Positions 41,901-50,900 of a stretch of 64,000 nt of DNA are shown here, piece by piece. The stretch lies in the NCBI GenBank assembly GCA_964106915.2, contig OZ066921.1; one strand, 5' to 3'. A program made the position numbers. This DNA is from Podarcis gaigeae (taxonomy: Eukaryota). How positions within the stretch are numbered: the first letter of the stretch is position 1; each line of letters opens with the position of its first letter.

Positions 41901-44900
41901 AATGACCCGAGCCATTCAAATGTTCCAGAGGTTGGCCAAGGCTTTGACAGGAGCACTGGTCATATCAGCCAGAGAATCCCCCAGAGCCGCCTGGAAACTC
42001 ATTGAAGCCATCAGCCTCTCAGGGGAGACCATGCTAATAGGTCCTCCAATTCTGCCGAGGAGGAAAGGTGCTAAGAGCCTAAATCTCAACAGGAAGCAGT
42101 CTGACCACAACAAGGGACTGATGCCAGTATCTCCCTCGTTCAGAACACACTCTTCCTGCCCAGTTGAGAAAACGAGGTCCAGTGATGACCTATTGGGACA
42201 GCCCCATGGTTGTCATGGCAGCCATGAAGTCCTGAGCCAACCCAGAGCCAGTCACCTAGGCAGGGATGTTGAATCCCCCATAACCAGCAGCCAGGCAGTG
42301 GAGGGAAAGTCAGGCTTTCATGTCATTGGTCCAGAGTTCTTTAGGTCTTTAGTCCAACGATTGTAGTTTAAATTCACTTGGAAGACTACAGGTAACACAG
42401 GTAACACCACCACCACCTGGCTGTCCACCTTTGGAATGCAGATCTTATCCTCAGACTCTGTGTTTGCAAGACTGTGCATCTCTGTCTATAGATCTTTACA
42501 AAATTGCCCTTTTGCATCTGAGGTTTTTTGCGATTGCCTTTAGAATTCCATACCTTTTTAACCGTCAAGAAAATCAGTGCATGGGGGGGGGGGGAGAGAG
42601 CACAGAGTGCCCAAAGGACAGTTGAGTAAAAACAAAGATAATTTATTTTTTCTTTTCGCGTTGATGTAATCAGTTCGAAAATATTTGATATTGTGATAAT
42701 TGTGCAATTAAAATTCTCGCTGAACTGCATTACAGCCCTGCTTTGTATGCAGCCAGGCGGGATCGCCAGCCGTCCATTCCATTTACACCACTCTCCCCCT
42801 GGAAATCTGCTTGTAATGCAAGCTGACATTTTTAATTTTCTCTTCATTTCCTAATCCTTGATTAGTAATTGTCTAAGTGATGTTCACACCAGGGCAAAAA
42901 GCATGAGCATTAGTGCAGCAAGCAGCACATCAGTATTATAACCAAGAGGTCATTAGAAAACTAGTGTGGTGTAGTGGTTAGAGTATTGGACTATGACTTG
43001 GGAGTCCAGGGTTTGAATCCCCACACAGCCATGAATCTCACCTTCAGCCAGTCACTCCTTCTTAGCCTAAGATCCCTCAAAGGGTGATGATGAGGATAAA
43101 AATTGAGAGGGAGACAATAATCTCCAGCACCGTGAGTTTCTTGGAGAAAAAGTGGGATGTAGATGCAATAATAAATATAATTCATTTGATCCTCACATGG
43201 GGCAATAAAATTAATTTGCTCCTATATACCATGATCATGAAGGGGTTTTGCCAGGGTGAGGCTGATCCACTGCTGACTCCTGCAATCAAGACAGAGAGAG
43301 AGAGAGTGTTTTTTTCTGGGGGGATGCAGGGGTACGCATGTTGGTTTCTGCTTCCTTCACTGAGCAGCGAAGTGCTTGTCACAAGACAATGTTTACATTC
43401 CACAGTCAAGTGCTGTTGGGTTTTCTCACGGGAAAGGAGACTGGATGTGACGTACACTGGTTTCCTGTTTTTCACTGTTCTTTGCAGTTCAGTGTGATTC
43501 TCTCCGTGTTTTAGAGGAGAGAGGATGCCTTTCTCTGCTCCGGCAGAGGGAAGATGTTTTTCTGTAAATTACCAGCTTTGAAGTGTAAATAAAGTAATAT
43601 AGAGTATGTTGGCACGTACTTTTCATCATTCCGCTGTGCACTGGACACTGCTTATCTCCAACATTTGGATATGGGCCCAGAAAAACGCAGTGTTTTGAGA
43701 ATGGACTCCAGAAGTCGGGCTCCTGGCAAAGGAACAAAGGAGCAAAGAATTGGAGTGCCGGCAAAGGATCGGAATGCAGAGGGCCGGATCGGACGATATC
43801 TCTGCACGTCAAGATGATTTGATGAGGTATGTGCTACAGCTCCGGGCAGCCTGCCAGCTTCTAATTAATGGCTTTATGGCTGGACTTTGAACTTTTATAG
43901 CCGGTTTTGCCGTGGCACAGGCAAAAGGCTAGAAGGATAAATTTTTCCTATGCTGGGGGAAATCAAAAGTAAAGCAGCTGCAGCAGTGTCGCAGCATGAA
44001 TTTAAGACAGCAGAGAGAACTTTCACTTTTGAACTTGCCTTTGGAATGCGGTTTGAAGCAGCTGCAGATAAGCAAAGCAGTTAAGCAGAAAGGCACAGGT
44101 TCACAGGCAGAGGCTGTTTTTGAATTTGCTTTTGGATTGAAGCAGCTGTACACAGACGCAGCATGTATAAAGCAGCCTGATTTAAAGCAGCAAAGATGAC
44201 GCTAAAGGCTAATGCCAAAGTCATGATGGCCCTTCAGGATGCTTGTGGGATTCCTAAGCTCAATAGGAAGAACTATGCGGACTGGGTTCTCTATGCAGAG
44301 GCTATTCTGCGGAAAGAGGGTCTGTTTAAAGTTATTACAGAGACCCCCCCAGCTCCAGTTACAGATGAATGGAAAGCTATGGATTCCAAGGCAAGGGGAA
44401 CTCTTACGTTGATAGTATCCCCAGAAGAGCTCTGTCTGTTGCGTGATAAGACCTCAGCCAGAGAAATTTGGGACGCTTTGAGAGAGGCTCACTTGAGGAC
44501 AGAAGCTGGGTCCACAATGTTTTACTTTAACAAGCTGCATAATATGGCTCTTGCTGAAGGTGGAGATGTGCGTATACATCTGATGGAGATGCAGAATCTG
44601 AGACATGAGCTGCAACAGAGAGGACTCAACTTTCCAGAGGAAGTGTATTCCTTTATGATACTACAATCTTTGGGTTCAGGTTGGGAGTCTGTTGCGACTC
44701 AGATTGCTGTACAGCCAACTGCTCAGCTAACAGTGGACTATGTTACTGCCGTGATATTGAATGAAGCGGATCGCCGGGGTGCTAGCTGCATCAACAAGGG
44801 GGAGACTTCACAGACGTCATCCCATAGTGCAGTGGAACCACCAGATGGCGCCAAAGCTTTGAAGGCAGTGAAATGCTACTCGTGTGGACGTCTAGGCCAT

Positions 44901-47900: not shown

Positions 47901-50900
47901 GAAGCTGAACTGAATGCACTGTCTTATTCACTTAAGGATTGTGAATGGTTGTTACAATTGTGCAAAGACATGAAAATTCCTGTCAAATGTCCAATCCAGG
48001 TTTACCAGGACAACAAAGCATGTTTGGCTTTGCTGAATTCTGAAGGTTGTAAGCAAAGCACGAAGCACTTGCAATTGAAGTTGCAACATGCTAGGGAACG
48101 TATTCAGAAGGGACTCGTAACTGTGTCCTATATGCCAGGTAATGAAATTCCTGCTGATGTATTGTCCAAGATTGTATCAAGGGATCAACACTGTACCTAT
48201 GTGCAGAAGTTGGGTTTGTACTGATATTGTACGAACACGCTGCCCAGTGATGTTCACAGAAAGGGGGAGGATGTTGGTTTCTGCTTCCTTCACTGAGCAG
48301 CGAAGTGCTTGTCACAAGACAATGTTTACATTCCACAGTCAAGTGCTGTTGGGTTTTCTCACGGGAAAGGAGACTGGATGTGACGTACACTGGTTTCCTG
48401 TTTTTCACTGTTCTTTGCAGTTCAGTGTGATTCTCTCCGTGTTTTAGAGGAGAGAGGATGCCTTTCTCTGCTCCGGCAGAGGGAAGATGTTTTTCTGTAA
48501 ATTACCAGCTTTGAAGTGTAAATAAAGTAATATAGAGTATGTTGGCACGTACTTTTCATCATTCCGCTGTGCACTGGACACTGCTTATCTCCATAAACAT
48601 TTTGTGAATCTTTGTATTTTGGTCCATTTACCATATTTATTTTTCCTGATTTGAACTATGAAATGGTGATTTTCTGGGGTCAAAATGAGAGCACCAATAA
48701 ACATTTTTTTTTAGAAGAAAAAGGCACTGTATATAGATATACATAGATATAGATGTATATGAAAGAAAGATTGATCTTCACACAAGATGAAGATCAGCAT
48801 TTTGTCTGAATAATTATTATTATTATTTTATTATTTGCACCCCGCCCATTTAACTGGGTTGCTCCAGGCACTCTGGGCGGGTTACAACATATAAAAAAAC
48901 ACAATAATGCACTACACAGCCAGAGTTTGTCAAACAAGCTGCACATCATCTCACATACAAGTAAAACAAACCATGGTACTTGTACCTCCTGAGCTTGGTT
49001 TGTTTCCCAGCTGTTCTTGTGTTGTCCCTGTAGCCTAATAAGTGTCTGGGGATGCACAGACCATGGTTAAGCAAGCAATAGCACCAAAGCATCATCAAAG
49101 CAATTCATAGTTTGTGAGTCAAGAACAGGCATAGGCAAACTCAGCCCTCCAGATATTTTGGGACTACAACTCCCATCATCCCTAGCTAACAGGACCAGTG
49201 GTCAGGGATGGTGGGAGTTGTAGTCCTAAAACATCTGGAGGGCCAAGTTTGCCTATGCCTGGTCAAGAACTTCACACCAGTTTTTGTTTCCAGAAAAGAA
49301 ACGCTGGTTAGTCTGCTGGATTGGCTTTGGACAGTCAAACAAACCAAACAAACCATGGCTTGGCCTGTGTTATGTTTGAACCAAACCAGTGGGCCACAGT
49401 TAGATTCAGAGAGATGACCTGGCCAAGCATTAGGGTCTTAACCAGCAATGCAATTATTATGCCCTTAAGGTTTAATCTAGCTCATGATTTAATTGCTAAC
49501 ATACTTAATTTATTTTGCTACTTAGATGTTTCTCCCTCCCTGTAACAAGAACACAGGGTGGGTAACAATTCTTTGTTACCTTAGTCTTGCTTCTACCTTA
49601 TGAGTCAAGCAAAACTGAGGTTGCTTTCGCAAGCAATGCATTCTTTTTGAATTCCATGCATCTCCAAGGTAACATCACTGGCCCCCGCTTTGTGATCTTT
49701 CACCAAAGAATATTTTTCACTCTCCTCATCCCCCCTCCCATCTCACTTTAATTTGTGAGAGGTCTCTCCGGCAAGAGGAGAGCCCTGAACTTTCATACTA
49801 AGTAATAACTCATACCAGCTCAGGAACGTGAGTGTGTCGGCTCATTTCAAATTATAAATCCAGATAGGTAGAGATGTGATTTGCATTAATTATTTGTGGG
49901 GGTTTTTGTTTGTTTTTGCATTAGACCCACCGCAACAAAATGATTCAAAAGATCAAATCAGGCATATTAGCGAGAGAATTACATTCGCTGTGTTGATTGC
50001 AAAAACTCCCTAAGAGAGAGTGATGCGTCCAGGATCTCCAAACGAGCTTCCTGGTTCTCCTGCAGCCAAGTCCTGTATCACTCACCTGCTTTGCATGCAA
50101 AAGGTCCAATCCCCAGCTTCTTCAGGAAAGACCCCCCCCCAACCTTAAACTTTGAGAAATTCCTTCTGATCAGGGTAGACAGTACTGAGCTTCATTCTGA
50201 CTCAATATAAGGCAGTTTCCTGTGACTCAAGCTTTGTTTTGTGCACTTTCTAAATTATTTAAATATTTGCAAATTTGCCATATAACTCACGCCTAGGGAA
50301 AGTTCTGATCATATCGTATTCAGTAAGAAGTAATTATTATCCTTTTTAATAAATAAGATGCATTTTAAAACTCAATAAGTAGATGGTAAAGGTCAATTGC
50401 AGTACTTTAAATGAGCTCTAAAAGAGATGAGCAGGACTCTCACACATAAAAAGGAAATAATTCAGTTTATGCCTCTAGTTCAGACTGTTGTTTCTGTATG
50501 GCCTTACTAGTGTATATTTGTTAGCATGCTTTATTTAAAATACGTTTCTACCTCCCTCCATCAAAAAGATGTCAAGGTGGCACACAGCGTACATGTATGA
50601 GCATAAAACAGAACATTAAACCAAATGCCATTTCATTTATTTTCTTTCTAGGATTTATATCCTGCCCCTCCTCACCAGTGGTCTCAAGGCAGGTCACAAC
50701 TGCTGGATTCACAAAGCTGAGCCCACCCCATTCATTTATATAGGATTGCAAGGGGTGTGTCAGTGTTGGGTCAGTTGTCCAAGCTTTAAGTAATTGGATC
50801 ACTTGCCTCTGTGTATCCTTGGATTAACTGTGTGCATTGCCTGCTGTTCTTCGGGCCAGCTATTTGCATACATATCGCACCAATCTGAATATTAAAGCTG

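What the first reader, a model, noticed from the sequence alone, without database searches (positions are those of the whole stretch)
43339..48593. Intact, probably still active Ty1/Copia retrotransposon in a lizard gene intron
Seen: LTRs identical by eye over 322 bp and a 1342-codon ORF with no stop or frameshift that retains all catalytic motifs. Known: intact Copia elements are essentially absent from mammals and birds and patchily distributed in other vertebrates. Inference: a very recent, possibly polymorphic insertion of a live family, and a candidate for horizontal acquisition.
Basis: partly seen in the sequence, partly recalled or inferred. Interest (0 to 1): 0.75.

Follow-up and report, generated by a model that had tools for sequence, protein, structure and literature searches.

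The report
Young full-length Copia retrotransposon in lizard
This is a complete, very young copy of a Ty1/Copia jumping gene in the genome of a wall-lizard-like reptile, which is an ordinary thing to find there because lizards and snakes are already known to carry hundreds of such elements.

Summary
Window 43339-48593 (+) is a 5,255-bp LTR retrotransposon. Its two 322-bp TG..CA LTRs are identical. One 1,342-codon ORF has no stop or frameshift. Pfam gives the Ty1/Copia order gag, zinc knuckle, protease, integrase, RVT_2 reverse transcriptase.

- **Host:** LINE fragments nearby are 95-98.5% identical to Podarcis proteins, so the host is a lacertid-like lizard.
- **Gene intron:** no host exon was found among 494 open frames scanned, so this claim stays unverified.
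- **Target-site duplication:** none flanks the element. That suggests recombination between two copies or an assembly join.
- **Catalytic motifs:** integrase, RT and RNase H residues are kept. The protease triplet has a minority form, shared by 17 of 222 relatives.
- **Horizontal transfer:** nothing supports it. The element is CpG-depleted like a vertebrate resident.
- **Novelty:** Copia is common in squamates, with 1,004 two-LTR copies reported in Podarcis muralis (PMC11889832). Polymorphic Copia insertions are known in Anolis (PMC7561263) and in a corn-snake OCA2 intron (PMC4657000).

Verdict: real, well preserved, probably young, but ordinary. Low interest.

The parts
43339..43660 (+). 5' LTR, 322 nt, TG..CA ends, AATAAA at 43588
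   Evidence: Exact repeat of 48272-48593. Sequence read. AATAAA located.
43661..44195 (+). Untranslated leader. It holds a PBS-like stretch that starts with TGG at 43666, 5 nt after the LTR. The primer tRNA was not identified.
   Evidence: Sequence read. No tRNA gene in the window to compare with.
44196..48224 (+). Single gag-pol ORF, 1,342 codons plus stop, with 0 stops and 0 frameshifts
   Evidence: 99% coverage against full-length Copia polyproteins.
44298..44777 (+). gag (Retrotran_gag_2, aa 35-194)
   Evidence: E = 6.4e-28.
44871..44918 (+). CCHC zinc knuckle (aa 226-241)
45078..45305 (+). Protease barrel (Pol_BBD, aa 295-370). The active-site triplet is in the family's minority form.
   Evidence: E = 2.7e-20..
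45384..46310 (+). Integrase: gag_pre-integrs/HHCC zinc finger, rve catalytic core with D,D,E, and SH3-like C-terminal domain (aa 397-705)
   Evidence: Invariant H430, H435, C462, C465, D493, E591 and D555 (11 of 12) in alignment A1.
46788..47516 (+). Reverse transcriptase, RVT_2 type (aa 865-1107), YVDD kept
   Evidence: E = 3.4e-69..
47763..48170 (+). RNase H region (aa about 1190-1325), placed by conserved acidic residues. No Pfam model matched here.
   Evidence: Invariant D1195, E1238, D1321 and D1272 (11 of 12) in A1.
48258..48271 (+). Polypurine tract, 14 purines abutting the 3' LTR
   Evidence: Sequence read.
48272..48593 (+). 3' LTR, 322 nt, identical to the 5' LTR
43334..43338 (.). Left flank where a 5-bp target-site duplication would lie. 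It does not match the right flank 48594-48598.
   Evidence: 0 of 5 at the TG..CA bounds. No exact 4-8-mer match at any bound shifted by up to 6 nt.

Best explanation
Window 43339-48593 is one full-length copy of a Ty1/Copia (Pseudoviridae-type) LTR retrotransposon in the genome of a Podarcis-like lacertid lizard.

How such an element works rests on established knowledge of the superfamily and was not tested here:
- The 5' LTR drives a genomic RNA that ends at the poly(A) signal in the 3' LTR.
- The single gag-pol ORF is translated and cut by its own aspartic protease.
- A tRNA annealed just after the 5' LTR primes reverse transcription, and the polypurine tract primes the plus strand.
- Integrase inserts the double-stranded copy, whose two LTRs are identical at birth.

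Shown here: both LTRs, the PPT, a PBS-like site, the complete ORF in Copia domain order, and preserved integrase, RT and RNase H catalytic residues.

Inferred: the copy is young, because the LTR pair has no differences. It belongs to a multi-copy family that has been resident in squamates, most likely the Mtanga clade that dominates there. It may still be competent.

The missing target-site duplication suggests that this locus is not a simple primary insertion. It is more likely a product of recombination between two copies of the family, or an assembly join across them.
For: Structure:
- LTRs match at 322 of 322 positions.
- ORF of 1,342 aa.
- Copia domain order, RVT_2 E = 3.4e-69.
- PPT and TG..CA ends read directly.
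- IN, RT and RNase H residues are invariant across 12 aligned polyproteins.

Relatives:
- 603 near-length relatives at E <= 1e-3. The best, P0001, is 56% identical over 99% of the query.
- Short unnamed fragments at 98%, 89% and 80% identity (P0285, P0294, P0241) show that the family and sister subfamilies exist elsewhere.

Host and residence:
- Host LINE fragments are 95-98.5% identical to Podarcis proteins.
- CpG o/e is 0.42 with TpG and CpA excess, a vertebrate-type depletion.

Literature:
- PMC11889832 (passages, supplement 3): Lepidosauria carry only the Mtanga clade. Podarcis muralis has 1,004 two-LTR Copia in 44 clusters and Zootoca vivipara 304 in 20.
- PMC7561263 (passages, table): 1,962 polymorphic Copia insertions in Anolis carolinensis.
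- PMC4657000 (abstract, passages): a 5,832-bp Copia insertion segregating in intron 11 of corn-snake OCA2.
Against: - No target-site duplication: 0 of 5 at the canonical bounds, and no exact match at shifted bounds.
- The protease triplet is in a minority form. The two nearest relatives that cover it (P0001 and P0294) do not share it. However, 17 of 222 relatives do, all 17 of them 1,270 aa or longer.
- No second copy, solo LTR or fragment of the family lies in the 64-kb window.
- No full-length relative above 56% identity appeared among the proteins searched.
- None of the organism-named hits is a vertebrate, so clade membership and copy number rest on literature, not on a test here.
- The PBS was not matched to any tRNA.
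Confidence: 0.85

Rival explanations
1. Assembly artefact. The assembler joined the left flank of one insertion to the right flank of another across a near-identical 5-kb repeat, or collapsed and polished several copies into one. On this reading the perfect LTR identity, and the locus as drawn, are partly products of assembly.
For: No target-site duplication at any plausible bound. The LTRs match at 322 of 322 positions. The family is expected to be multi-copy in lacertids (PMC11889832, supplement 3).
Against: There is no N or gap in the window. The element itself is internally coherent, with one uninterrupted ORF and correct PPT and PBS-like contexts. Natural recombination between copies gives the same signature. 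Nothing in the flanks marks a join.
Confidence: 0.15
2. Recent horizontal acquisition. On this reading the family entered the lizard lineage lately from another animal, for example an arthropod or parasite.
For: The nearest organism-named relatives are arthropods at about 32% identity (Lasius niger, Cordylochernes scorpioides), and 0 of the named hits are vertebrates. No relative above 41% over IN-RT-RH appeared among 1.84 billion representatives, except one 286-aa fragment. PMC11889832 (passages) discusses horizontal transfer as one possible deep origin of Mtanga in Sarcopterygii.
Against: - The protein sets hold few vertebrate transposon proteins, so the lack of vertebrate hits is weak evidence.
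- About 32% identity to arthropod elements is the general Copia background, not a donor signal.
- CpG o/e of 0.42 with TpG/CpA excess indicates long evolution in a CpG-methylating genome.
- GC content equals the host's, 0.441 against 0.444.
- Squamates are reported to hold more than 100 Mtanga clusters of their own (PMC11889832).
Confidence: 0.05
3. The copy is complete in appearance but not autonomous. On this reading its protease variant or an unseen regulatory defect makes it dependent on proteins from sister copies, or inert.
For: The protease triplet differs from 204 of 222 relatives, from P0001 and from the 89%-identical fragment P0294. No strict TATA pattern was found in the LTR. The PBS is unmatched.
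Against: The same minority residue occurs in 17 of 222 relatives, all 1,270-1,461 aa long and 15 of 17 with a Y.DD motif. It therefore looks like a tolerated natural state. All other catalytic residues are intact.
Confidence: 0.15

Closest known systems
Mtanga-clade Ty1/Copia elements of squamates (Mob DNA 2025, PMC11889832; passages and supplement 3 read)
   Same: Two-LTR Copia elements in lizard and snake genomes. Lacertids are included: Podarcis muralis has 1,004 sequences in 44 clusters and Zootoca vivipara 304 in 20. The authors take such copies as signs of recent transposition.
   Different: Membership of this copy in that clade was not tested, because no reference sequence could be brought in. 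The paper's own sequences could not be compared with the window.
Copia insertion in intron 11 of OCA2 in the corn snake (Sci Rep 2015, PMC4657000; abstract and passages read)
   Same: A roughly 5.8-kb Ty1/Copia element with gag, integrase, RT and RNase H domains, newly inserted in a squamate gene intron and still segregating.
   Different: There the empty allele, the host gene and a phenotype are documented. Here neither a host gene nor an empty site could be shown.
Polymorphic Copia insertions of Anolis carolinensis (PLoS Genet 2020, PMC7561263; passages and table read)
   Same: Evidence that Copia families are still inserting in a lizard: 1,962 polymorphic insertions.
   Different: A different lizard family. 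The LINE fragment next to this element is only 77% identical to its Anolis counterpart. No sequence comparison of the Copia elements themselves was possible.
P0001, an unnamed 1,338-aa Copia polyprotein on a 4,931-nt contig
   Same: Same length and domain set, 56% identity over 99% of the query. It is the only full-length relative above about 41%.
   Different: Its origin is not named and was not traced. It carries the majority protease triplet.

Membership tests
Ty1/Copia LTR retrotransposon | Pol domain order protease, integrase, reverse transcriptase, RNase H (integrase upstream of RT) | tested here: met
   Pfam positions: Pol_BBD 295-370, rve 484-584, RVT_2 865-1107. RNase H residues lie after aa 1190.
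Ty1/Copia LTR retrotransposon | RVT_2-type reverse transcriptase and copia-type gag | tested here: met
   RVT_2 E = 3.4e-69 and Retrotran_gag_2 E = 6.4e-28, both above the curated cut-offs.
Ty1/Copia LTR retrotransposon | Direct LTRs with TG..CA ends and a polypurine tract abutting the 3' LTR | tested here: met
Ty1/Copia LTR retrotransposon | Primer-binding site complementary to a host tRNA | not testable with these tools
   A TGG-initiated stretch lies 5 nt after the 5' LTR. No lizard tRNA set was available and the window has no tRNA gene.
Ty1/Copia LTR retrotransposon | Short (usually 5-bp) target-site duplication flanking a primary insertion | tested here: not met
   0 of 5 matches at the canonical bounds. 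No exact 4-8-mer at bounds shifted by up to 6 nt. This marks the insertion event, not the element type.
Ty1/Copia LTR retrotransposon | No env-like ORF between pol and the 3' LTR | tested here: met
   Only 47 nt separate the stop codon (48224) from the 3' LTR (48272).
Mtanga clade of Copia | RT/RNase H clusters with the reference Mtanga element in a tree | not testable with these tools
   No reference or squamate Copia protein could be fetched. Membership is inferred only from PMC11889832, which found no other clade in Lepidosauria.
Autonomous, currently active element | Uninterrupted coding capacity with catalytic residues of all four enzymes | tested here: inconclusive
   0 stops and 0 frameshifts, and IN, RT and RNase H residues are kept. 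The protease triplet is in a minority form, 17 of 222.
Autonomous, currently active element | Near-identical sister copies and presence/absence polymorphism among individuals | not testable with these tools
   No lizard genome or read collection was available. The window holds one copy only. Unnamed protein fragments of 98%, 89% and 80% identity exist.
Ty3/Gypsy element or endogenous retrovirus | Integrase downstream of RT/RNase H, with env for retroviruses | tested here: not met
   Integrase precedes RT, and there is no RVT_1 or env hit.

The most novel reading that the evidence does not exclude
The copy belongs to a Copia family that is transposing now in a Podarcis-like lizard and is still polymorphic at this site. 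The family is a distinct lineage: no full-length relative exceeds 56% protein identity in 5.8 billion clustered proteins. It spreads with a non-majority protease active-site triplet. It may have reached lacertids by transfer from another squamate or from a parasite rather than by descent.
Probability: 0.2. Interest if true: 0.4.

Novelty: new member of a known kind. Interest (0 to 1): 0.2.

Why it matters
It matters little beyond cataloguing. A complete copy with no LTR divergence is a useful reference for annotating Copia in lacertid genomes, and a candidate marker for insertion polymorphism in wall-lizard populations. If a host gene does surround it, the corn-snake OCA2 case shows that such intronic insertions can alter splicing. 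The missing target-site duplication also warns that this locus should be checked before it is used as evidence of a primary insertion.

Tried and rejected
- **Host exons by Pfam.** 209 open frames of 75 aa or more were found, and the 15 wholly inside the element were left out. The other 194 were scanned and gave no real family. Of 320 frames of 50-74 aa, 300 were scanned and gave no real family. The 20 frames between 20486 and 24618 were not sent.
- **Two weak hits rejected.** PRC2_EED_ins (22 bits, below cut-off) at 56951-57247 is a poly-asparagine simple repeat, which matched only linker runs of fusion proteins in the PDB search. CxC3 at E = 0.0038 among 150 queries is at chance level.
- **Whole-frame translation.** It was not pursued in that form.
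- **RNA scans.** Rfam at gathering thresholds and ARAGORN found nothing in the window.
- **Family copies in the window.** A search for other copies, solo LTRs or paralogous empty sites found none.
- **ESM Atlas.** It returned only generic Copia clusters without taxa.
- **Representative-library search.** It gave no closer full-length relative.
- **Tandem repeats.** None of note lies in the element.
- **Human sequence.** No part of the window or of any hit was taken for human.
- **Collections not available.** Copy number, orthologous sites and lizard Copia sequences therefore stayed unchecked.
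Full report
**Observation.** The 64,000-base window has no N. The repeat finder reports one direct-repeat family in 42000-50000, with copies at a spacing of 4,933 nt. Base-by-base extension gives an exact block at 43338-43660 that recurs at 48271-48593, with 20-27% identity in the 30 nt beyond each end. The first base of the block is the last purine of the polypurine tract in the 3' copy. The LTRs proper, read as TG..CA, are therefore 43339-43660 and 48272-48593, 322 nt with 0 differences. This matches the finding exactly. Between them lies ORF 44196-48224 (+), 1,342 codons.

**What it is.** Pfam places the following on the ORF, in this order:
- Retrotran_gag_2 (aa 35-194)
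- zf-CCHC (226-241)
- Pol_BBD protease barrel (295-370)
- gag_pre-integrs (397-469)
- rve (484-584)
- SH3_retrovirus (643-705)
- RVT_2 (865-1107, E = 3.4e-69)

Integrase upstream of an RVT_2 reverse transcriptase defines Ty1/Copia. It excludes Ty3/Gypsy and retroviruses. The ORF aligns over 99% of its length with polyproteins of about 1,300 aa, so there are 0 stops and 0 frameshifts. A 14-nt all-purine tract (48258-48271) abuts the 3' LTR. A TGG-initiated stretch lies 5 nt after the 5' LTR. The LTR holds an AATAAA at 43588. Only 47 nt separate the stop codon from the 3' LTR, so there is no env.

**Catalytic motifs.** I aligned the ORF with 11 relatives (A1). These residues are invariant or nearly so, and the window copy has them:
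- integrase zinc-finger H, H, C, C
- the integrase D, D, E residues
- the RT aspartate of motif A and YVDD
- four RNase H acidic residues

The protease triplet keeps its first two residues, but its third differs from all 11 aligned relatives. It also differs from the 89%-identical fragment P0294. I widened the count to 385 stored relatives, of which 222 have an alignment covering the motif. Of these, 204 carry the majority residue, 17 carry the same residue as the window copy and 1 carries another. All 17 are 1,270-1,461 aa long, and 15 of them keep a Y.DD motif. This is therefore a recurrent natural minority state, not a private lesion. Its effect on activity is untested. 'Retains all catalytic motifs' is right for three enzymes and open for the fourth.

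**Missing target-site duplication.** At the TG..CA bounds the 5-mers on the two sides match at 0 of 5 positions. Shifting either bound by up to 6 nt gives no exact match for k = 4 to 8. With LTRs that have not diverged at all, decay of a duplication is not a credible cause. From established knowledge of LTR retrotransposons (recalled), intact elements without a duplication are usually read as products of unequal recombination between two copies of one family. An assembly join across a near-identical repeat gives the same picture. The flanks have no paralogous empty site or tell-tale repeat in the window, so I cannot separate the two.

**Age.** Zero differences in 322 paired sites gives a 95% upper bound of T = 3/(644 x rate). 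With assumed neutral rates of 1-2 x 10^-9 per site per year (my assumption, from no call), that is about 2.3-4.7 million years. One difference would be expected only after about 0.8-1.6 million years. 'Young' is supported. 'Very recent, possibly polymorphic' is allowed but not shown.

**Host.** Two LINE ORF2 C-terminal fragments (the CR1 label is recalled) lie at 18850-19331 and 39301-39782, inverted and 98.1% identical. Their translations are 95-98.5% identical to annotated proteins of Podarcis raffonei and P. muralis (P0121-P0123). The figures for other lizards are 77-78% for Anolis carolinensis and 72-74% for Salvator merianae. The window therefore comes from Podarcis or a close lacertid relative. 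'Lizard' is supported.

**Gene intron.** I found no host exon.
- All 194 stop-free frames of 75 aa or more outside the element gave no real Pfam family.
- 300 of 320 frames of 50-74 aa also gave none.
- A PRC2_EED_ins hit is a poly-asparagine repeat artefact, and a CxC3 hit is at chance level.
- Rfam and tRNA scans were empty.
- No CpG island stands out. The highest 2-kb CpG o/e value outside the element is 0.47.

Pfam is insensitive to single short exons, so this does not refute an intronic position. The claim is simply unverified.

**Relatives and the horizontal-transfer idea.**
- In the near-length search, 603 proteins reached E <= 1e-3. The best is P0001 (unnamed source, 1,338 aa) at 56% identity, and the other listed hits are at 27-38%.
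- Nine of the 120 listed hits carry an organism name: ants, a wasp, a pseudoscorpion, fungi and plants. None is a vertebrate.
- The 'shorter' search adds unnamed fragments at 98% (P0285, 128 aa), 89% (P0294, 134 aa) and 80% (P0241, 285 aa). Its named hits are plants and one spider.
- The search of IN-RT-RH against 1.84 billion representatives found 216,815 relatives. None exceeds 41% identity apart from P0241.

This isolation mostly reflects how rarely vertebrate transposon proteins enter protein sets, so it is not evidence of foreign origin. Against a recent arrival from a non-methylating genome, the element's CpG o/e is 0.42 (ORF 0.40) with TpG and CpA at 1.3-1.4. The rest of the window is at 0.29, and 98 same-sized pieces range from 0.18 to 0.395. 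GC content is 0.441 against 0.444. The element is slightly less depleted than its surroundings, as a young copy of a resident lineage would be.

**What is already known.**
- Chalopin et al. 2015 (PMC4350176, passages) state that Copia is absent from mammals and birds, present in other vertebrate lineages, and probably ancestral.
- The 2025 Mobile DNA survey (PMC11889832; passages and supplement 3 read) used LTRharvest at 80% or greater LTR similarity. It found only the Mtanga clade in Lepidosauria, with 90% of that clade's record number of clusters coming from squamates.
- Its table lists Podarcis muralis with 1,004 Copia sequences, 44 clusters and 98 singles, and Zootoca vivipara with 304, 20 and 31.
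- Its authors discuss horizontal transfer only as one option for the deep origin of the clade in Sarcopterygii.
- Bourgeois et al. 2020 (PMC7561263, passages and table) count 1,962 polymorphic Copia insertions in Anolis carolinensis.
- Saenko et al. 2015 (PMC4657000, abstract and passages) describe a 5,832-bp Copia insertion segregating in intron 11 of corn-snake OCA2.

Intact, recently inserted and even intronic Copia copies in squamates are therefore established. I saw the search listings. I read no other papers.

**Verdict.** The feature is real, precisely delimited and well preserved. It is a new member of a known and, in this host group, common kind. Clade membership (Mtanga) is inferred from the literature and was not tested. 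Current activity is plausible but unproven, and the lack of a target-site duplication needs read-level checking. Horizontal acquisition has no support here. Interest is low.

Noticed in passing
window 18850-19331 (-) and 39301-39782 (+): Two LINE ORF2 C-terminal fragments (the CR1 label is recalled), 98.1% identical and in inverted orientation 20 kb apart. They are 95-98.5% aa-identical to Podarcis proteins, which points to a young LINE family in the host. Older fragments lie at 7770-7908, 12607-13027 and 40067-40474.
   Followed up: partly
window 19835-19969, 49126-49262, 63672-63808: A family of roughly 135-bp units that match each other in both orientations (81-93%), so each is a near-palindrome. 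They look like MITEs.
   Followed up: no
window 27607-27809: A 203-bp stretch that is 94.6% identical to its own reverse complement, a long hairpin-forming palindrome.
   Followed up: no
window 31643-31873, 60378-60591, 62358-62587: Three copies of a roughly 230-bp interspersed repeat (86-90% identical), of SINE-like size.
   Followed up: no
window 52542-52793 and 58179-58430: A direct pair of about 250 bp at 89% identity, 5.6 kb apart. It could be the LTRs of an older, degraded element. No coding remnant was found between them by Pfam.
   Followed up: no
window 56951-57247 (+): A simple repeat that translates to a poly-asparagine run. It produced spurious hits to PRC2_EED_ins and to linkers of maltose-binding-protein fusions.
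   Followed up: yes
window 43661-44195: The element's 535-nt leader has an unusually high GpC observed/expected value (1.84), from recurring GCAGC-type words. TRF reports only a short 8-nt repeat (43727-43747) there.
   Followed up: no
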